Positions 33,059 through 59,775 are shown, counted from the first letter of the stretch. The stretch: DNA of 64,000 nucleotides from Candidatus Woesearchaeota archaeon (GCA_016181305.1 JACOZN010000010.1:32001-96000), one strand, 5' to 3'. The notes: generated by a model not told the origin, from the sequence alone. Program-made: numbers and translations.

Positions 33059-33850
33059 TCACTCTGGATTGTAGAATTTTCTTATGCTTTTATTCTTCAC
33101 CCATTTAATCGCTTTTTCATAATCCTCATTGGTGTCGAATTCCATCCAGCCGTGCTTGATTGGCACAGGATACACTTTCTGCCCTGAATTTATTATCAGC
33201 TGGAGCATGTCAGTCATGTAAAGCTTTTTGAATGACCTGGAGTTCATGAACCTTTCATCTTTGCCCCAGTAAATCCTTTTGCTTTTATTGTATAATTTTT
33301 TCAAAACAGCAATGCCTTTTTCTGAGAACTTTATTAAGCCGACGTACCTGAAATTTGCCTTGCTAAGGGGGCAGTCTGGAACGCCAACTTCGACAATGCT
33401 GCCGTCTTTTCCAATTACAAGGCTTTCTGTATCCTCCTGCCATTTTTTGCCAAGCCTTGCCTTCCAATAATCCAAGTAATCAATGTCAACTGCAACCCCT
33501 ATGTCAACAGGCGCTTCAATCACCTGCTTTGCGATTCTTTTTTCATACAATATGTCGCCATAGCACACAAGAATGCCGTCATTTAATTCTTTCCCGGCGC
33601 ACATAAGGCTGGCAACCATATTTGTGCTTGCGTAATTCGCATTGTGGCAATAGTCTGCATTCTTTATTTTTATTTTATCTTTCATGTAACCTGTTACAAT
33701 GACGATTTCATTAATGCCGCAGGCTCTCAAAGTTTCAACCTGCCTTTCAATCAGCGTTTTTCCGTTGAAATTGAGCATGCACTTAGGCAGAGTCTTTGTG
33801 TACTTGTCCAATCTTGTGCCCATGCCAGCTGCGAGGATTATGGATTTCAT
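33059..33850 (-). CDS. LicC-like NTP transferase; putative CTP:phosphoglutamine cytidylyltransferase (Cj1416-like)
   Basis: 'IILAAGMGTRL...PKCML', 'TNMVASL', 'YGDILYE', 'GWMEFDTNEDY' motifs, in an operon with Cj1417- and Cj1418-like genes. Confidence 0.78.
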   Translation of the reverse strand: MKSIILAAGMGTRLDKYTKTLPKCMLNFNGKTLIERQVETLRACGINEIVIVTGYMKDKIKIKNADYCHNANYASTNMVASLMCAGKELNDGILVCYGDILYEKRIAKQVIEAPVDIGVAVDIDYLDYWKARLGKKWQEDTESLVIGKDGSIVEVGVPDCPLSKANFRYVGLIKFSEKGIAVLKKLYNKSKRIYWGKDERFMNSRSFKKLYMTDMLQLIINSGQKVYPVPIKHGWMEFDTNEDYEKAIKWVKNKSIRKFYNPE

Positions 33851-33857
33851 CTGAAAA

Positions 33858-34547
33858 CTATTTTTCCCAAAACAATTTTCCTTCAACAAAAGCCTTGACC
33901 AACTTCTTATTTGTCTCCTTATCGCACCCTTCCCTTTCAGGATGCCAAAGAATGCCTGCAATCATGTGCTTTGGATGGTAAAACCCCTCTATAATGCCAT
34001 CATCGGAAACTGCAAAAGGCTTTAATTGCCTTGACAATGTGCTTTTGTCAACGCCCTGCTTGTGGTAGGAGTTCACAACAAATTTCTTACTGCCAAGAAA
34101 TTTTTCAGCTTTTTTGTCCATAATTTGAACATCATGCTTAACGCGCACATGGCTAATGCCTGTTTTTTCCTCAATGTCCTGAACAAGCTTTCCACCGAAA
34201 AAGACGTTGACAAACTGCCCTCCCCTGCATTCCCCAAGCAAAGGCAATTTTCTTTTCAAAGCAATTTCAATAATCTTTTTTTCAGTGGCGTCTCTTTCAT
34301 TTGAAAAATCCCCATTTTTGGGCTTGGCGCCGTAAAGCGCAGGGTTTATGGAATTGCCGCCGCTCAGGATTATTCCCTTTATGGGCATCTCCTTAAAATA
34401 TTTGTCCAGATTCCTGCTTACATTCGGCACAGGAACCAATGCAATGCCGAATTTCTCGTAATACCCGATGTAGTCATTTTCAAGGGCATCTCGGCAAGCG
34501 CCTTTGTCCATTTTCATGCTTCTTTGGGAGATCGCTATGAGCATCAT
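33858..34547 (-). CDS. Class I glutamine amidotransferase / peptidase C26; putative gamma-glutamyl-CDP-amidate hydrolase (Cj1417-like)
   Basis: 'IILSGGN', nucleophile 'GECRGGQ', 'VNSYH', 'WHPER' (Cys-His-Glu triad). Confidence 0.8.
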   Translation of the reverse strand: MMLIAISQRSMKMDKGACRDALENDYIGYYEKFGIALVPVPNVSRNLDKYFKEMPIKGIILSGGNSINPALYGAKPKNGDFSNERDATEKKIIEIALKRKLPLLGECRGGQFVNVFFGGKLVQDIEEKTGISHVRVKHDVQIMDKKAEKFLGSKKFVVNSYHKQGVDKSTLSRQLKPFAVSDDGIIEGFYHPKHMIAGILWHPEREGCDKETNKKLVKAFVEGKLFWEK

Positions 34548-37531
34548 GCACCCCTGATTGGCTCTATTTTATGCGCCTTGCAGTCAAGATGCACGGAATC
34601 GGCATTGACCAAATTGTCAAATATTACTCCGCAGCCGATTGCTGCAGGAATCCCGAATTCAGCGCACCTTATTGACATATGCGAAGCCACTCCGCCGTAT
34701 TTTGTGATTAAGCCTGCAATGTTTCTTGTAAATACCCAGTCATAGCCCGGGTCGCCGCTCTCGATAAGGACAACCTTGTTTTCTATGTCACCAACGCTTT
34801 TTCCGTCAAACTTGCTTAGGTTTACCAGCTGGGCATTTACATTCTTTGCAGTTATGTAGTTGGGCCTTGGTGCATAGTAAGTAACAACATCCAAGTCACT
34901 TTCCGAGAAAATTATAGGCGGCAGCTCAATTTTGTTATTCAGCTCCCTTTCTTTTCTCCTTGAAGTTATTGCCCCTTTCCATTTCCCGGTAAGCTCCTCC
35001 CTGCCAAGATTTGCATTGCTGAACAAGGCATCAGCATCCAGCATGGCAAGCTCCTGCCTTGTAAAGCCCATTTCCTCTCCGGCAAGCGCTATAAGCTCGA
35101 GCGCGTCGCTCAGGTTTTTTGTGAACTGGAATTTTGAGAGCTCTCTTGCCTCCAAAGCTGATTTTGTGAATTCAAGCAGCTGCATTGCATCAAATTTCAG
35201 GCCTTCCTGCTTCAGGATTTTTGTAATTCTCTCATAAGCATCATTGTCTACTATAAAAGAATCTGAATGATCTTCATGCAAATCAAAGCTTAGGGTTTTC
35301 AATAGCCCGGGGTTTGACTCGTACCTTGGGCTTGTAATGTCGTAAGAGCCAGGCCTTAAGTGGTAGTATTTCTTTACGAAGTCGTCATGATTCATCGCGC
35401 CTGAGCCAAGCAGCCTGAAGTCCCTGCTCATTTCCTTGGCGACAGTGCTTATGGAGTTCATGAAATTGTCATAGAAGACAGAGCCTATTATGCTTTTGCG
35501 CACAAGGCTTTTCAATATTATTTTGCCGACAAATGCCAGCCTTGCCAGCCTTGAAAACTCAACTGTGCCCTTTTTCCTGCAGTCGCCAAGCAGGAATTTT
35601 GCATTGCCAAGCATGGCTTCAACTGAATTGCCATGGGCTGAATTTTTCCTTATCCTTTCCCTGTTTGATTCCATTTCCTTGAGGCGCTTCAAATCCTCCC
35701 GGATTGATTCTTTGGAATGCACCACAAGGCTGTTGGTTAGCTTTATCAGTGCTTGCTTAAGCTCTTCAATATCCTCTCTTGCAAAGCCTGATTTTGAAAG
35801 CTCCTCTGACCTTTCGCCAAACGCCATGTCATAGCATGTAAACAAAACCTCAAACTCCACCTTGTCCTGCATATCCGGATTTTTCTCGAGCTTGTCGAGA
35901 TAAAAGTCAACGAGCTTCTCGCGCAGCTTCTGCGACAATGCAGCAGGCACGAATGAGTTAAAAGTGTTCCTAACGTCGATATAAGGCTTGTTGCCGAGCA
36001 AAACAACAAGCTTTGCCGGGTTTACATTATAATATCCCTGCGATGTCCTTGCCTCGTGCCATGCGCTGCCTGTTATGAGATAGTCATAAAGCGAATAGTC
36101 AAGATAATTCGGGTTGTCGCCTATTATTTCAGCAGGATTCCAGTCCGGCATGTCGGCAAGGATTGTCCTTTTCCCGGCAAGATGGGGCTTTCTGGCTGAA
36201 AGCTCGGCGAACCTAGCCTTTAGCAAGTCAATCCTGCTTTTGACTTCAGCATCGTCAGTCTCGTATTTGTTGCTTGTTGTCAATGGCCTTACCTGAAAGA
36301 TTATCACTTCGTTTTTGTTGTTTACTGCAAACTCTATGTCAAGCCCTATATTCGGGGCTATGCCTTCTATCTCTTTTACAGCTGCCAGCAGGTTTTGCAT
36401 GCTGCCAGGCAGCGAGCTTATTTCAGCAAACCTTGATATTTTCATTGTATTGCTCTCGACGCCTTTTGTGACTGTATCTGATTTTCCGGTTGAGCTGTCA
36501 TAATTGACTACATAATAAGGAGAATTTTTTTCCAAGGATCTTGTAAGTATCACGCCGCTCATTACAATATTCTCTGTCTGCTGCTGAATAAGGACTTGGT
36601 TGAATGAATTCTCGGATGACTTGTGCTTGTACGAGCTTATTACTTTCTTTACAGCAGCCTCGATCTCCTTTGAATCTGCTGAGCCAACATTAAGCTCTGT
36701 TGCAAAATAGCCTGCCATTGAGCTGTCAAGAGTATCTTCGTTGACAGCAGAGCTCCTGACTGCGATTTTGAAAGGCTGGAATTCCTCTTTTACTCTTTTG
36801 AGCAGTTCGTCTTTTTTGTTCTTCCAGTCTGAGACAGAAAACACATATGATTTTTCAATCCTTGATTTTTTAAGCAACGGCTTGAGCGCAGTCAATGTGT
36901 CTGCTTTTGTCGAGATTATAACCTTGTTGCCTTTTTGGTACTCCTTGTCAAGCTTGACTTCCCCCTTTATCAATGACTCAAAGTGGATAACATCCTTCAG
37001 CTTGTCCTTGCTTTCTATAAGCTCTGTTATGATTTTATATGTTGAAAGCCTTCCATAATATGGATGTTGTATGACTTTGCCGCCTATTTGGCTTATGTAT
37101 TCAGAGCCGTGCACATAGCTTAAGTCAGAGCCGTGGACAAGTGTTATTTCTGCATCAGGGAACTCCTCGTGTATCTTCTTGAGGTTCTCTGTTGGGTCTC
37201 TTGAGTCCTGCACCATAACCCTGTCAACGCAGTTGAGGCTTGAAATTATGGATTTTCTTTCCTGAAGATTGGCAATCGGCTTTGCCCTGTATTCCTCCAC
37301 AGCCTTGTCAGTCAGCACACCAACTATATTATAGTCAGAAATAGACTTGGCAAACTGGATTGAATGCAGATGCCCGTAATGAAACAAATCTGCTGCAACT
37401 CCGCTGTATGCTATTCTCTTTATAGATGCTCTTTTTACCTCTACTATATCGCCTTCCCTGATGCTTGAGCCTGTAGGAATTGTAATGCACAGCTGGTTAT
37501 TGGATTTGTTTTTCCATACTATCTTTTTCAT
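34544..37531 (-). CDS. AbrB-like + HxGH cytidylyltransferase + PEP-utiliser-family kinase fusion; putative L-glutamine kinase (Cj1418-like)
   Basis: N-terminal 'NNQLCITIP...IREGDIVEV', 'ADLFHYGH', ATP-grasp 'AVRSSAVNED' and 'LDIEFA...IFQVRP', central 'MPDWNPAEIIG', C-terminal phospho-His 'TKYGGVASHMSIRCAEFGIPAAIG'. No PEP/pyruvate-binding barrel. Confidence 0.85.
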   Translation of the reverse strand: MKKIVWKNKSNNQLCITIPTGSSIREGDIVEVKRASIKRIAYSGVAADLFHYGHLHSIQFAKSISDYNIVGVLTDKAVEEYRAKPIANLQERKSIISSLNCVDRVMVQDSRDPTENLKKIHEEFPDAEITLVHGSDLSYVHGSEYISQIGGKVIQHPYYGRLSTYKIITELIESKDKLKDVIHFESLIKGEVKLDKEYQKGNKVIISTKADTLTALKPLLKKSRIEKSYVFSVSDWKNKKDELLKRVKEEFQPFKIAVRSSAVNEDTLDSSMAGYFATELNVGSADSKEIEAAVKKVISSYKHKSSENSFNQVLIQQQTENIVMSGVILTRSLEKNSPYYVVNYDSSTGKSDTVTKGVESNTMKISRFAEISSLPGSMQNLLAAVKEIEGIAPNIGLDIEFAVNNKNEVIIFQVRPLTTSNKYETDDAEVKSRIDLLKARFAELSARKPHLAGKRTILADMPDWNPAEIIGDNPNYLDYSLYDYLITGSAWHEARTSQGYYNVNPAKLVVLLGNKPYIDVRNTFNSFVPAALSQKLREKLVDFYLDKLEKNPDMQDKVEFEVLFTCYDMAFGERSEELSKSGFAREDIEELKQALIKLTNSLVVHSKESIREDLKRLKEMESNRERIRKNSAHGNSVEAMLGNAKFLLGDCRKKGTVEFSRLARLAFVGKIILKSLVRKSIIGSVFYDNFMNSISTVAKEMSRDFRLLGSGAMNHDDFVKKYYHLRPGSYDITSPRYESNPGLLKTLSFDLHEDHSDSFIVDNDAYERITKILKQEGLKFDAMQLLEFTKSALEARELSKFQFTKNLSDALELIALAGEEMGFTRQELAMLDADALFSNANLGREELTGKWKGAITSRRKERELNNKIELPPIIFSESDLDVVTYYAPRPNYITAKNVNAQLVNLSKFDGKSVGDIENKVVLIESGDPGYDWVFTRNIAGLITKYGGVASHMSIRCAEFGIPAAIGCGVIFDNLVNADSVHLDCKAHKIEPIRGA

Positions 37532-37534
37532 ATT

Positions 37535-37570
37535 TCACTAGTGAGACTAGTAAAACTATTTAAAGATTAC
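37535..37570 (-). promoter_or_regulatory. TATA box plus palindromic ACTAGT-N3-ACTAGT candidate operator upstream of the phosphoramidate operon
   Basis: Minus-strand CTTTAAATA at 37565-37557. Perfect palindrome TCACTAGTGA at 37535-37544 and a second ACTAGT at 37546-37551, between the TATA box and the ATG. Confidence 0.45.
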
Positions 37571-58362: not shown

Positions 58363-59739
58363 TTATTCCATATAGCCCAGCTCTCTCAGCAGCTTTTTTG
58401 ATTTATCATCCATGCTTGACAAGTCAGCATCACCTTCATTGCTTTGCTGCTTTAAAAAATCCAGCATCTTTTGTTTCATTTCAGATGCAACTTCTTTTTC
58501 TTTATTTATCAGATTATTTGTCTCATTGGGGTCGTCCTTTAGGTTGTAAAGCTCAAAAATATCGTTTTGTGGGTGCGGAATGTAGATGAGTTTCCAGTCT
58601 CCTATTATCATCGTACGCCATTTTCCCCTTATTCCCGGGAAGAATATTCTCTTATGCCCCTTGAAATGCTCTTCAAGGCTCTCGGCAAAGACAAACTCCC
58701 TGCCTTTTAGGGTTTCTCCCTTAATTAAAGGCAGCAGGCTCATGCCGTCCACCCTGTCAATCAAAGGCACGTTGAGCATGTCCATTATCGTGGGCATTAT
58801 GTCGATGTTCTGCACTCTTTGCTTTATAATCTTGCCCTTTGGAACCAGTTTTGGATGCCTGAATATTAAAGGTATCCTCAAGCTCGGCTCATAGAGGCTT
58901 GCAGCATGCTGGAAGTAAAAATCATGCTCGCCGAAATTCTCGCCATGGTCCGATGTAAGAATGACTAAAGTTTCATCTTCAAGCCCAGTCTCCTTTAACG
59001 TGTCCAGGATTCTGCCAATCTGGGTGTCAACATATTTTATAGCTCCGTCATAATGCGCTATTGCATGCTCCATCTCCTCTTTTGGAAACTTGACATGCCC
59101 GAACAAGATGTCGCCTCTTGCCAGTTTCCCATCGGCTAATGTGTTGAAGTCGTGGCTGCCTTTATAGCCGGAATCAAACATATGTTCATAGGGCTTTGGA
59201 GGCCAGTAAGGCCAGTGCAGGTCTATGGGATGGTGGCATAAAAAGAATTTTTCATTGGAGTGCTTTTTTATCCACCTTATCGCTATTTGAGTATGCTGCT
59301 CAGTCAGGCCAAGAAAATTCTTGGGATTTAATATTTTATAAATGCCCCTTTTGATTTTGTTTTCAATTTTCCACGTGAGCGGATTGAACTCCTGAAACCC
59401 TTTTTTCATGGCTGGCTCGCTCAGAACGTCTACATCAAGGTATGCATTCCTGAAGCCGTGGCTTTGAAGTATTTCAGGCAATGTTGTTACAGACTCATTG
59501 AACTTGTTGTTGGAGACAAGCCTTATGCCATGGTTATGCGGATAGACTCCTGTGAATGCGGACAATATGGATGAATTTGTCCATGGAAAAGGGCAATACG
59601 CGTTCGAGAAGCTCGTGCCTTCTTTTGCCAGCCTGTCTATGTTCGGGCTTGTAGCCCTTGCATAGCCGTTTGCGCTTAAATGGTCAGGGCGCAGTGCATC
59701 CACTATAAACATGATTATGTTCATTTTGCCTAAGGGCAT
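58363..59739 (-). CDS. Soluble sulfatase-fold (alkaline phosphatase superfamily) enzyme
   Basis: 'NIIMFIVDALRPDH', 'TSPNID', 'FPWTNSSILSAFTG', 'DLHWPY', 'LTSDHGENF', 'LYNLKDDP' motifs. No TM helix. Confidence 0.87.
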   Translation of the reverse strand: MPLGKMNIIMFIVDALRPDHLSANGYARATSPNIDRLAKEGTSFSNAYCPFPWTNSSILSAFTGVYPHNHGIRLVSNNKFNESVTTLPEILQSHGFRNAYLDVDVLSEPAMKKGFQEFNPLTWKIENKIKRGIYKILNPKNFLGLTEQHTQIAIRWIKKHSNEKFFLCHHPIDLHWPYWPPKPYEHMFDSGYKGSHDFNTLADGKLARGDILFGHVKFPKEEMEHAIAHYDGAIKYVDTQIGRILDTLKETGLEDETLVILTSDHGENFGEHDFYFQHAASLYEPSLRIPLIFRHPKLVPKGKIIKQRVQNIDIMPTIMDMLNVPLIDRVDGMSLLPLIKGETLKGREFVFAESLEEHFKGHKRIFFPGIRGKWRTMIIGDWKLIYIPHPQNDIFELYNLKDDPNETNNLINKEKEVASEMKQKMLDFLKQQSNEGDADLSSMDDKSKKLLRELGYME

Positions 59740-59775
59740 ATTCACTAGTTTAAAAATCTATATTAAGCATGCAAA

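What the first reader, a model, noticed from the sequence alone, without database searches (positions are those of the whole stretch)
34544..37531. Unusual triple fusion: AbrB-like DNA-binding domain + second cytidylyltransferase + glutamine kinase
Seen: residues ~1-36 (KKIVWKNKSNNQLCITIP..SIREGDIVEV) resemble a swapped-hairpin AbrB/SpoVT domain. Residues ~37-170 are an HxGH cytidylyltransferase (ADLFHYGH, VGVLTDKA, VHGSD, PYYGRLST) of the type I recall fused to PEP mutase in phosphonate clusters. The remainder is Cj1418-like. The operon therefore has two unrelated cytidylyltransferases. Inference: a self-regulating enzyme, and either a second activated product or a replacement for the missing Cj1415 step.
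Basis: partly seen in the sequence, partly recalled or inferred. Interest (0 to 1): 0.75.

Follow-up and report, generated by a model that had tools for sequence, protein, structure and literature searches.

The report
Self-regulating phosphoramidate enzyme with own operator
A tiny groundwater archaeon fuses a short DNA-binding-like tail and a cytidylyltransferase onto the enzyme that starts making a rare phosphorus-nitrogen surface group, and the same palindromic DNA site sits in front of the gene wherever that tail occurs, so the enzyme probably switches its own operon on and off.

Summary
The 995-aa ORF (34544-37531, minus) is intact. It has three parts. Residues 1-36 are a conserved tail ("N-ext"). 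Residues 37-175 are an HxGH cytidylyltransferase (CT) closest to Fom1 and ECT. Residues 201-992 are a PRK05849-type kinase (857 bits against a cut-off of 501), followed by Cj1417-like and Cj1416-like genes.

The CT-kinase fusion is common and uncharacterised: 104 of 116 protein hits, in archaea and many bacterial phyla. The Cj1416-like gene is kept whether or not CT is present, so CT is an add-on. APS-kinase-CT-kinase fusions exist, so CT does not replace Cj1415.

N-ext is a sub-threshold relative of AbrB/MazE (hhalign 78-84%; 0 of 500 shuffles reach it).

New here: ACTAGT-N3-ACTAGT lies between a TATA-like box and the ATG.
- It occurs once in the 1.07-Mb genome.
- It is present (at most 1 mismatch) in 13 of 13 N-ext loci and 0 of 67 loci without N-ext.
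- It is present in 79 of 80 metagenome N-ext loci, including stand-alone N-ext+CT genes that head phosphonate operons.

Best reading: a NadR-like self-repressing enzyme. The CT substrate is unresolved.

The parts
37557..37564 (-). TATA-like box (TTTAAATA), 26-33 nt upstream of the ATG
   Evidence: Read directly. An A/T-rich block sits at the same offset (-12 to -5 from the motif) in 70 distinct metagenome segments. Its function as a TATA box is inferred from archaeal promoter geometry, which I recall.
37537..37551 (.). Operator-like element ACTAGT-CTC-ACTAGT: two palindromic hexamers with a 9-bp period, ending 5 nt before the ATG
   Evidence: It is the only exact ACTAGT-N3-ACTAGT in the 1.07-Mb genome. 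It is conserved in 13 of 13 N-ext loci and in 0 of 67 loci without N-ext. It is present in 8 of 8 N-ext genes of a 301-genome sample and in 79 of 80 metagenome loci.
37424..37531 (-). N-ext, residues 1-36: conserved hairpin-turn-strand module with a GD-box. It is a remote AbrB/MazE (cradle-loop barrel) relative and the candidate DNA-recognition element.
   Evidence: Conservation is shown. hhalign against 27 PF04014 segments gives probability 78-84%, and 0 of 300 and 0 of 200 shuffles reach the score. Sub-threshold PDB hits are DPBB designs and AbrB regulators. Atlas gives TM 0.47 to a MazE cluster. There is no Pfam hit.
37007..37423 (-). HxGH cytidylyltransferase domain, residues 37-175 (HYGH at 51-54, RLST at 161-164), Fom1/ECT-like
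36932..37006 (-). Linker, residues 176-200
   Evidence: It lies between the CT match and the NF004508 match and is variable in alignment A2.
34547..36931 (-). Glutamine-kinase-like PEP-synthase-type phosphotransferase, residues 201-995. It has an ATP-grasp (PPDK_N) part at the N-terminal end and a mobile His domain at 917-985.
   Evidence: NF004508 scores 857 bits against a cut-off of 501. Pfam finds PPDK_N and PEP-utilizers. Only PEP synthase is found among solved structures. JGI names four homologues 'glutamine kinase'.
34679..34681 (-). Codon of His951, the predicted phospho-carrier histidine (GGVASHM)
   Evidence: It is invariant in 53 homologues and lies inside the PEP-utilizers mobile domain. 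Its role is inferred from the family.
33858..34547 (-). Peptidase C26 / class-I amidotransferase gene, Cj1417-like. Its start overlaps the stop of the fusion gene by 4 nt.
   Evidence: Pfam Peptidase_C26 6.2e-38. The best NCBIfam model is NF045546, gamma-glutamyl-CDP-amidate hydrolase, at 104 bits, below its cut-off of 250.
33059..33850 (-). NTP_transf_3 nucleotidyltransferase, Cj1416-like (263 aa from the ATG at 33850), with the GxGTRL motif intact
   Evidence: Pfam. The best solved relatives are LicC 1jyk and PntC 6pd1.

Best explanation
The gene encodes a three-part 'trigger enzyme' that starts phosphoramidate (P-N) head-group synthesis and most likely represses its own operon.

(1) Kinase part, shown by homology. 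The C-terminal 795 residues are a PRK05849-type, PEP-synthase-like kinase. By family and synteny it phosphorylates the amide N of L-glutamine through phospho-His951. The next two genes are a C26 amidase and a LicC-like nucleotidyltransferase. By analogy with Cj1417 and Cj1416 they turn glutamine phosphate into CDP-glutamine and then CDP-phosphoramidate.

(2) CT domain, shown by homology, role inferred. Residues 37-175 are an intact Fom1/ECT-type HxGH cytidylyltransferase. It is an add-on to a pathway that already has its Cj1416-like enzyme, and it has been lost again in one lineage. I infer that it binds CTP or a CDP/CMP conjugate of the pathway. It could act catalytically on a P-N or phospho-alcohol substrate, as a sensor of the end product, or both.

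(3) N-ext, inferred from conservation. Residues 1-36 form, as a dimer, a small AbrB/MazE-like beta-barrel that recognises the two palindromic ACTAGT hexamers. These lie between the TATA-like box and the start of a probably leaderless transcript. Bound enzyme would therefore block RNA polymerase, with the nucleotide state of the CT domain setting the affinity. The logic resembles NadR (DNA-binding domain, HxGH adenylyltransferase, kinase).
For: Architecture and family.

Synteny:
- The order kinase > C26 > NT3 holds in all classes. By tblastn, both partner genes are present in 12 of 13 class A, 39 of 45 class B, 16 of 20 class C and 2 of 2 class D loci. Most misses are at contig ends.
- The NT3 motif GxGTRL is intact in every class.

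CT is dispensable: three DPANN loci nested in the N-ext clade have lost N-ext and CT but keep kinase, C26 and NT3.

Operator:
- One exact site in the genome, while the hexamer ACTAGT occurs only 54 times in 1.07 Mb.
- 13 of 13 against 0 of 67 loci.
- In 301 genomes the motif is no commoner than its reversed control (29 against 26 sites). Even so, 6 of the 27 sites examined sit 5-17 nt before an N-ext start, and all 8 N-ext genes carry it.
- 79 of 80 metagenome loci carry it, with 0 exact copies elsewhere in 409 kb.
- Both hexamers are invariant in 70 distinct segments while the spacer and flanks vary.
- It accompanies N-ext in three architectures: CT-kinase, stand-alone N-ext+CT of about 180 aa, and ORFs of at least 1432 aa.
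- The one locus without it has N-ext changes K9I and S10A.
- No other gene family is shared by more than 16 of the 80 loci, so no dedicated neighbouring regulator is seen.
- This genome has one N-ext protein and one operator.

Fold hint.

Parallel in print: about 60% of PEP mutases are fused to PF12804 or PF01467 nucleotidyltransferases (PMC6697681, passages).
Against: - The fold of N-ext and its dimerisation are therefore untested.
- N-ext fails Pfam PF04014. An AbrB HMM built from relatives does not reach it in a six-frame search of the genome at E up to 10. The aligned stretch lacks the AbrB helix.
- The tail and the motif lie within about 25-130 bp of each other. Their joint loss could reflect single deletions rather than function. 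Only 3-4 independent contrasts exist on the kinase tree (sign test p = 0.25).
- A regulator encoded elsewhere could bind the site.
- The promoter geometry (TATA position, leaderless start) is inferred, not measured.
- The identity of the kinase with Cj1418 rests on an unnamed NCBIfam model, JGI names and synteny. No Campylobacter sequence was compared.
- The CT substrate is unknown.
Confidence: 0.55

Rival explanations
1. The CT domain is purely catalytic and makes a second CDP-activated head group, such as CDP-glycerol, CDP-ethanolamine or a CMP-phosphonate. The neighbouring TagF-, LicD- or CDP-alcohol-type phosphotransferases would use it. The N-terminal tail would be only a structural extension, a dimer clamp or lid, of that enzyme. 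The upstream palindrome would be bound by some other regulator.
For: - CDP-type phosphotransferases lie within 10 kb of 32 of 54 CT-bearing loci but only 3 of 22 CT-less loci.
- The window has a TagF-like gene two genes upstream.
- The closest solved relatives act on phosphoethanolamine and hydroxyethylphosphonate.
- L003 carries both a CT-PEP mutase and a CT-kinase.
- TagF-like FtaD uses an unusual CDP donor (bioRxiv 10.64898/2026.02.12.704994, passages).
- HxGH is kept in 49 of 55 stand-alone forms.
Against: - There are only 2-3 independent contrasts, so the association has no statistical weight.
- The same transferases could use CDP-phosphoramidate itself.
- In the gene strings of several bacterial loci a single LicD gene sits next to the fusion, C26 and NT3 genes.
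- L059 and L041 carry a further separate CT beside the fusion.
- No stand-alone CT is found in any of the 22 CT-less loci.
- This reading does not explain why the tail and the palindrome are co-conserved in 79 of 80 loci.
Confidence: 0.25
2. The CT domain is the channelling partner of the kinase. It cytidylylates glutamine phosphate (or free phosphoramidate) directly on the fusion protein, in parallel with or ahead of the Cj1416-like enzyme. This would resemble ATP sulfurylase paired with APS kinase.
For: - The fusion is strict across archaea and at least 8 bacterial phyla, and the nearest CT relatives are almost all kinase-fused.
- APS-kinase-CT-kinase triple fusions exist.
- Class D loci fuse a degenerate Cj1416 paralogue at the same position.
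- PEP mutase fusions to the same two nucleotidyltransferase folds are a precedent (PMC6697681).
Against: - The Cj1416-like gene with intact motifs is retained nearly everywhere, which would make the activity redundant.
- CT was lost in L030, L031 and L036 without loss of the pathway genes.
- In Fom1 the fused CT acts three steps after the mutase, so fusion does not imply adjacent steps (PMC6697681).
Confidence: 0.2
3. The CT domain replaces the missing Cj1415 (3'-kinase) step.
For: No APS kinase is found above the cut-off in this genome: best 20.4 bits against 21.1, with the genome 78% complete.
Against: - P0316 and P0324 carry APS_kinase, CT and kinase in one chain, and P0316 is 53% identical to this protein over residues 37-992.
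- APS-kinase genes lie in 9 of 54 CT-bearing loci and 6 of 22 CT-less loci.
- A nucleotidyltransferase does not perform a 3'-phosphorylation. This last point rests on recalled family chemistry.
Confidence: 0.03
4. The ACTAGT repeat is not a protein operator for the tail. It could be a hairpin-forming or recombination element inherited together with the 5' end of the gene.
For: - The two hexamers can pair as a 6-bp stem with a 3-nt loop, as read from the sequence.
- The motif and the tail are physically adjacent, so they co-inherit.
- The module appears in front of different operons.
Against: - A hairpin needs only complementarity. Yet both arms keep the same self-palindromic sequence in 70 distinct segments, with no covarying alternatives.
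- One-mismatch variants are not compensated.
- From the TATA-like position, the motif lies upstream of the expected transcript start (inferred).
Confidence: 0.1

Closest known systems
Campylobacter jejuni MeOPN precursor pathway: Cj1418 L-glutamine kinase, Cj1416 phosphoglutamine cytidylyltransferase, Cj1417 gamma-glutamyl-CDP-amidate hydrolase, Cj1415 CDP-amidate kinase (PMC11800397 and PMC6429109, passages)
   Same: The kinase has a PPDK_N part and a mobile His domain. The gene order is kinase, C26 amidase, MobA/LicC-like nucleotidyltransferase. The best NCBIfam model for the amidase is the Cj1417 function.
   Different: The kinase carries an extra HxGH cytidylyltransferase and a 36-aa tail. 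No Cj1415-like kinase was found in this genome. The candidate transferases are TagF-, sulfatase- and SGNH-type. The organism is a DPANN archaeon. The amidase scores below the equivalog cut-off.
Fom1 (cytidylyltransferase fused to PEP mutase) and the Ppm-nucleotidyltransferase fusions of phosphonate clusters (PMC6697681, passages; PDB 5x3d)
   Same: It has the same CT subfamily (6.9e-14 over residues 38-167) at the N-terminus of the enzyme that makes the unusual P-X bond. The clusters often hold a second nucleotidyltransferase of the other fold. N-ext+CT also occurs fused to PEP mutase (P0052) and next to CT-PEP mutase genes.
   Different: The partner is a P-N-forming kinase rather than a P-C-forming mutase. 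The substrate of the CT is unknown. Neither the tail nor an operator is described for Fom1 in the passages I read.
NadR of enterobacteria: DNA-binding domain, HxGH NMN adenylyltransferase and ribosylnicotinamide kinase. The enzyme activities come from the abstract of PMC7221760. The repressor role comes from a title in that paper's reference list and the search listing of PMC12421817. The domain order is recalled.
   Same: An N-terminal DNA-binding element, an HxGH nucleotidyltransferase and a kinase sit in one chain. The proposed logic is an enzyme whose nucleotide state controls repression of its own pathway.
   Different: NadR uses a helix-turn-helix and a P-loop kinase and controls several promoters. 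Here the element is a 36-aa beta module, the kinase is PEP-synthase-like, and each genome examined has a single site at the gene's own promoter. The two are analogous, not homologous.
AbrB/MazE/SpoVT swapped-hairpin DNA-binding domains, including the minimal archaeal Sso7c4 (PMC3159460, abstract)
   Same: They share a strand-proline, turn, GD-box, strand signature, aligned over 19-23 columns. They are small, dimer-forming DNA binders common in these archaea, found in 21 of 21 relatives.
   Different: N-ext is below the Pfam threshold, is 36 rather than about 45-50 residues long, has a 4-residue gap where the helix lies, and runs directly into the first Rossmann strand of an enzyme.

Membership tests
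AbrB/MazE/SpoVT (Pfam PF04014) | Match to the family HMM at or above the gathering score | tested here: not met
   There is no PF04014 hit for residues 1-46 at E up to 10. An HMM built from 27 PF04014 segments of relatives does not list the N-terminus in a six-frame search of the genome at E up to 10.
AbrB/MazE/SpoVT (Pfam PF04014) | Profile-profile similarity beyond chance | tested here: met
   hhalign gives probability 77.8-83.7% and score about 25. 0 of 300 and 0 of 200 column shuffles reach it (maxima 20.1 and 17.5).
AbrB/MazE/SpoVT (Pfam PF04014) | Complete strand-strand-helix-strand-strand unit of about 45-50 residues | tested here: not met
   Only 36 residues precede the first Rossmann strand. 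The alignment has a 4-residue gap at the helix.
AbrB/MazE/SpoVT (Pfam PF04014) | Homodimeric swapped-hairpin barrel | not testable with these tools
The Atlas model of homologue P0040, residues 1-40, gives TM 0.47 to a MazE cluster. Sub-threshold PDB hits are DPBB designs and AbrB regulators.
AbrB/MazE/SpoVT (Pfam PF04014) | Sequence-specific DNA binding | not testable with these tools
   The evidence is indirect only: a conserved palindromic site at the gene's own promoter.
GCT/CCT/ECT-type cytidylyltransferase (Pfam PF01467) | Family HMM above the gathering score | tested here: met
   40.8 bits against 21. TIGR00125 scores 36.6 bits against 27.7.
GCT/CCT/ECT-type cytidylyltransferase (Pfam PF01467) | HxGH signature and the C-terminal nucleotide-binding motif | tested here: met
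   HYGH is at 51-54, with H51 and G53 invariant. Y159 is invariant, and L162 and S163 are at least 90% conserved. That RLST corresponds to the family's 'RTxGISTT' motif is recalled.
GCT/CCT/ECT-type cytidylyltransferase (Pfam PF01467) | CTP-dependent transfer to a defined phospho-substrate | not testable with these tools
L-glutamine kinase family (Cj1418; NCBIfam NF004508/PRK05849) | Full-length match above the curated cut-off | tested here: met
   857.3 bits against 501, covering residues 201-992 and profile positions 6-788 of 789. That Cj1418 belongs to this model is recalled, since the model's own name is 'hypothetical protein'.
L-glutamine kinase family (Cj1418; NCBIfam NF004508/PRK05849) | ATP-grasp (PPDK_N) part plus a mobile phospho-His domain with a conserved His | tested here: met
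   Pfam finds PPDK_N and PEP-utilizers. H951 is invariant in 53 sequences.
L-glutamine kinase family (Cj1418; NCBIfam NF004508/PRK05849) | Operon partners: C26 amidase and MobA/LicC-like nucleotidyltransferase | tested here: met
   Both partners are present in 69 of 80 related loci.
L-glutamine kinase family (Cj1418; NCBIfam NF004508/PRK05849) | Direct sequence similarity to Cj1418 itself, and glutamine as substrate | not tested
   No Campylobacter sequence was available from any tool. JGI names four homologues 'glutamine kinase'.
Trigger enzymes (enzyme plus own repressor, NadR/BirA/PutA type) | A DNA-binding element and an operator at the controlled promoter | tested here: inconclusive
   An operator-like site is shown by conservation. 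Binding by the tail is inferred, not shown.

The most novel reading that the evidence does not exclude
N-ext+CT is a previously undescribed family of ligand-sensing autorepressors in DPANN archaea. A 36-aa mini AbrB-like barrel reads a YACTAGT-NN-YACTAGT operator that overlaps the promoter. A cytidylyltransferase-fold domain senses, and perhaps makes, the CDP/CMP-activated end product. Stand-alone or fused to the first enzyme, the module sits at the head of operons for organophosphorus surface chemistry. These include P-N (glutamine kinase), P-C (PEP mutase, Ppd, Fe-ADH, B12 radical SAM) and phosphonate uptake (PhnDCE). In the window, this explains why the operon has two cytidylyltransferases: one catalytic (Cj1416-like) and one regulatory.
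Probability: 0.4. Interest if true: 0.8.

Novelty: new variant of a known kind. Interest (0 to 1): 0.72.

Why it matters
Phosphoramidate (P-N) surface groups are documented experimentally only in Campylobacter in the papers I found. For archaea, my four literature searches turned up only one in-silico mention, the Borg preprint.

This locus and its relatives add three points:
- The glutamine-kinase route is widespread: 567 confirmed relatives among species genomes.
- Most copies among the best 80 loci carry an uncharacterised second cytidylyltransferase.
- In DPANN archaea that domain has acquired a tiny tail, paired one-to-one with a conserved promoter palindrome.

If the tail binds that site, three things follow. 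It would be one of the smallest sequence-specific DNA-binding modules fused to an enzyme. It would be an archaeal counterpart of NadR-type trigger enzymes. It would also be a directly testable switch for organisms that cannot yet be grown, since the 180-aa stand-alone form and a 30-bp duplex suffice for the test. The same module links P-N and P-C (phosphonate) operons, which suggests shared control of organophosphorus cell-surface chemistry.

Tried and rejected
1. Structure route.

I replaced it with my own ORF calling, all-against-all clustering and Pfam scans of cluster representatives. My greedy ORF caller mis-called some genes, for example the NT3 of L028. tblastn counts and one search corrected this.

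3. 'CT replaces Cj1416' is rejected. NT3 is retained with intact motifs. The two long loci without it were checked genome-wide: the L016 genome has it elsewhere, and L028 has it inside the locus. The class C L042 genome lacks an orthologue.

4. 'CT replaces Cj1415' is rejected.

5. Statistical association of CT with LicD, TagF, CDP-OH transferases, sulfatase, HIT, APS kinase and others gave raw counts only. There are 2-3 independent contrasts, so nothing is significant.

6. The AbrB test by plain HMMs was negative at genome scale. Small-database scores of 10-14 bits were not used as evidence.

7. A regulon was sought for the motif. There is no second exact site in the genome. The two one-mismatch windows are one overlapping the site itself and one on contig C19 that was not followed. 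A single ACTAGT half-site lies before another sulfatase-fold gene and was left as a note.

8. Direct comparison with Cj1418, Cj1416 or Cj1417 sequences was not possible. The primary papers PMC5629633 and PMC5938751 are not held, no tool returned a Campylobacter sequence, and no solved structure of these proteins turned up.

9. The long forms (1147-1335 aa) share residues 1-418 with this protein and then carry a His domain and a second PPDK_N. They were not followed further.

10. Supplementary files of papers were not requested. Those of PMC6697681 and of the Borg preprint may list fusion inventories that bear on how new the architecture is.

Full report
OBSERVATION

The minus-strand ORF 34544-37531 is open for 995 codons.

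Pfam places CTP_transf_like at residues 48-137 (40.8 bits, cut-off 21). It also finds PPDK_N from residue 242 and the PEP-utilizers mobile domain at 917-985. NCBIfam NF004508/PRK05849 covers residues 201-992 at 857 bits against a cut-off of 501.

A search with residues 1-200 returned 116 proteins. Of these, 104 carry PF01467 together with PF01326 at 930-1335 aa. The fusion is therefore real and recurrent, not an assembly artefact. In 53 aligned homologues, H51 and G53 of the HYGH motif and the swivel His951 are invariant.

The CT domain is closest to ethanolamine-phosphate cytidylyltransferase (3elb, 3.5e-14) and to the cytidylyltransferase domain of the PEP mutase Fom1 (5x3d, 6.9e-14, residues 38-167).

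Downstream, and translationally coupled, lie two genes:
- A Peptidase_C26 gene (33858-34547). Its best NCBIfam model is gamma-glutamyl-CDP-amidate hydrolase, at 104 bits, below the 250 cut-off.
- An NTP_transf_3 gene (33059-33850), LicC/PntC-like.

Its genome of 1.07 Mb is 78% complete and has no APS kinase above the cut-off.

HOW COMMON IS THE ARCHITECTURE

A scan of one genome per species confirmed 567 relatives of the kinase, and I studied the best 80 loci. BLASTP against the window protein sorts them as follows:
- Class A, 13 loci: tail (N-ext), CT and kinase.
- Class B, 45 loci: CT and kinase without the tail. This count includes the 2.4-kb fragment L034, in which only the C-terminal part of the kinase is seen. 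The class spans DPANN archaea and bacteria, including Halanaerobium, Anaerovibrio, Bacteroidota, Lachnospiraceae, Treponema, Synergistales, Melainabacteria and an alphaproteobacterium.
- Class C, 20 loci: kinase alone. These include Nitrosopumilus, Leptospira, Planctomycetota, Omnitrophota and some Pacearchaeota.
- Class D, 2 loci: a degenerate NTP_transf_3-like domain in front of the kinase.

The two-domain fusion is thus ordinary in distribution. None of my four literature searches on the pathway or on AbrB found it described. The only archaeal mention of this pathway is a structure-based annotation in Borg elements, where the genes are separate.

WHAT THE SECOND CYTIDYLYLTRANSFERASE IS NOT

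The order kinase > C26 > NT3 holds in every class. By tblastn, both partner genes are present in 12 of 13 class A, 39 of 45 class B, 16 of 20 class C and 2 of 2 class D loci. Nearly all misses are at contig ends. The two long loci without NT3 were checked genome-wide. The NT3 GxGTRL motif is intact in all classes. CT is therefore an addition to the pathway, not a substitute for Cj1416.

It is also not a substitute for Cj1415:
- APS-kinase genes lie in 9 of 54 CT-bearing and 6 of 22 CT-less loci.
- Two protein clusters, P0316 and P0324, carry APS_kinase, CT and kinase in one chain. P0316 is 53% identical to the window protein over residues 37-992.

On a FastTree of the kinase domain (76 rows), three DPANN loci without CT (L030, L031, L036) are nested inside the tail-bearing clade (support 95-99). 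CT can therefore be lost while the core pathway stays.

CDP-type phosphotransferases (LicD, TagF-like, CDP-alcohol type) are near 32 of 54 CT-bearing loci and only 3 of 22 CT-less loci. With 2-3 independent contrasts this is descriptive only.

The closest published parallel is in phosphonate clusters. About 60% of PEP mutases are fused to PF12804 or PF01467 nucleotidyltransferases, and some clusters hold a second one (PMC6697681, passages).

THE N-TERMINAL TAIL

Residues 1-36 (MKKxVWKNKSNxQLCxTIPxxSxIKEGDxVEV) are more conserved than the enzyme behind them.

Negative results:
- They do not match Pfam PF04014 at E up to 10.
- An AbrB HMM built from 27 PF04014 segments of related genomes does not reach them in a six-frame genome search.

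Positive results:
- Profile-profile comparison gives 78-84% probability over 19-23 columns (LCITIP, a 4-residue gap, IREGDIVEV). 0 of 300 and 0 of 200 column shuffles reach the score.
- A profile search of solved structures gives only sub-threshold hits, but they are cradle-loop barrels sharing the GD-box. They are designed double-psi barrels, including 43-48-residue chains that the depositors named as halves, and three AbrB-family regulators.
- The Atlas model of homologue P0040 gives TM 0.47 to an archaeal MazE cluster and TM 0.85 to a 187-aa stand-alone tail+CT cluster.

The tail always precedes this CT type. It is also found on CT-PEP mutase (P0052), CT-CT (P0118), stand-alone CT (P0121) and longer kinases.

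THE OPERATOR-LIKE SITE

I compared the upstream regions of the tail-bearing loci. All carry two ACTAGT hexamers three bases apart, just after a TATA-like box and just before the start codon.

In the window the site is at 37537-37551. It is the only exact copy in the 1.07-Mb genome, where the single hexamer occurs only 54 times.

Evidence from the three data sets:
- The 80 species loci (1.47 Mb). The site, with at most 1 mismatch, is present in 13 of 13 tail-bearing loci, and in 0 of 45 class B, 0 of 20 class C and 0 of 2 class D loci.
- 301 genomes of the same class. The pattern is no more frequent than its reversed control: 29 sites in 27 genomes against 26 sites in 21 genomes, by my count from the table. 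Even so, 6 of the 27 sites examined lie 5-17 nt before a tail-coding start. All 8 tail-bearing genes of that sample have the site, 6 exact and 2 with one mismatch. Four of the 8 are stand-alone tail+CT genes of about 180 aa. Three of the 8 are the window or loci already counted above.
- 80 metagenome loci selected only for the tail. 74 have the exact site and 79 have it with at most 1 mismatch, while no exact copy occurs elsewhere in their 409 kb. The distance to the ATG is mostly 4-5 nt. In 70 distinct segments both hexamers are invariant while the spacer and flanks vary. The consensus is YACTAGT-NN-YACTAGT-R, and an A/T block lies 5-12 nt upstream.

The one locus without the site has K9I and S10A in the tail. 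No neighbouring gene family is shared by more than 16 of the 80 loci, so no dedicated separate regulator is evident. This genome has one tail and one site.

With a TATA box about 26 nt before the transcript start (recalled geometry), the transcript would begin at or just before the ATG. The site would then cover roughly -18 to -4 relative to that start. That makes it a DNA element where archaeal repressors act, not an RNA leader.

CAVEATS

- The tail and the site are adjacent, so joint loss may be a single deletion.
- The kinase tree offers only 3-4 independent contrasts. All go the same way, with p = 0.25.
- Binding is inferred.

CONTEXT OF THE STAND-ALONE FORM

59 of the 80 metagenome loci encode complete tail+CT proteins of 168-192 aa. 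HxGH is kept in 49 of 55 distinct sequences.

Among the representative neighbouring genes that I scanned with Pfam:
- Some belong to phosphonate synthesis: CT-PEP mutase, a TPP decarboxylase, an Fe-alcohol dehydrogenase and a B12 radical-SAM enzyme.
- Others belong to phosphonate uptake: a PhnD-like binding protein, an ABC ATPase and a permease.
- One locus has a second CT and an MFS transporter.

The module therefore heads operons of P-C as well as P-N chemistry.

READING

The best-supported account is a trigger enzyme. The kinase starts phosphoramidate synthesis. The Cj1416-like and Cj1417-like enzymes complete CDP-phosphoramidate. The tail represses the operon at its own promoter. The CT domain supplies nucleotide or product binding, with or without catalysis. 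NadR is the nearest analogue in logic (domain order recalled).

Two rival roles for CT are not excluded: making a second CDP-activated head group, or channelling glutamine phosphate. Its substrate is open.

NOVELTY AND SCORE

- The domains are known kinds.
- The CT-kinase fusion is common but uncharacterised.
- The tail-operator pair and its link to organophosphorus operons are, as far as my searches show, undescribed.

I rate it a new variant of a known kind, with interest 0.72.

Noticed in passing
window 59739-59749 (minus strand; gene 58363-59739): A single ACTAGT half-site with the same 3' flank (ACTAGTGAATATG) lies directly before the ATG of a second sulfatase-fold gene (Pfam Sulfatase 2.7e-52). 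It could be a weak second target of the same regulator, or chance: the genome has 54 such hexamers.
   Followed up: partly
L078 and L079, 9287-12397 (class D loci; an uncultured bacterium and an Aliifodinibius MAG): The kinase is fused to an N-terminal NTP_transf_3-like domain that has lost the GxGxR motif (FIFGAARVKS). An intact Cj1416-like gene sits downstream. This is a second, independent fusion of a nucleotidyltransferase fold at the same position.
   Followed up: partly
P0316 and P0324 (1130 and 1143 aa, metagenome proteins): These are APS_kinase, CT and glutamine-kinase-like domains fused in one chain. The APS-kinase domain occupies the place that the tail has in the window protein.
   Followed up: partly
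P0037, P0039, P0058, P0060, P0062 (1147-1335 aa): These are longer relatives, all with the CT domain; P0037, P0039 and P0058 also carry a tail-like N-terminus. P0058, the one compared, shares residues 1-418 (tail, CT, first ATP-grasp-like part). All five then carry a PEP-utilizers domain followed by a full second PPDK_N, an order reminiscent of water dikinases (recalled). Their function is unknown.
   Followed up: partly
L207 2442-8115 and similar metagenome loci: This is a Fom-like phosphonate gene set in presumed DPANN or marine archaeal contigs: B12 radical-SAM, tail+CT, CT-PEP mutase, TPP decarboxylase and Fe-alcohol dehydrogenase. In other loci tail+CT heads a PhnD/ABC/permease set.
   Followed up: partly
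L010, L011, L026, L037, L043 and others (component 15; representative L026 10630-12876): 748-aa fusions of a pyruvate-kinase barrel, a PUA_2 domain and ATP sulfurylase sit next to APS-kinase genes in 9 phosphoramidate loci. They could serve sulfate activation or an unknown nucleotide step.
   Followed up: no
L005, L009, L015, L023, L037, L046, L055 (between the C26 and NT3 genes): A HIT-family gene is inserted in the core operon in 7 CT-bearing loci and in none of the 22 CT-less loci. Some HIT enzymes hydrolyse nucleoside phosphoramidates (recalled), so it may act on a P-N nucleotide.
   Followed up: no
L030, L031, L036, about 20-35 nt upstream of the kinase start: The three DPANN loci that lost the tail and CT share a different palindrome (TAATTATGnATAATTA) after their TATA-like box. 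This suggests a different regulator there.
   Followed up: no
L004 10001-12891: The closest species-genome relative (91% identity) has the fusion gene in three overlapping ORFs. This is a frameshifted assembly or a pseudogene, yet it keeps the exact upstream site.
   Followed up: no
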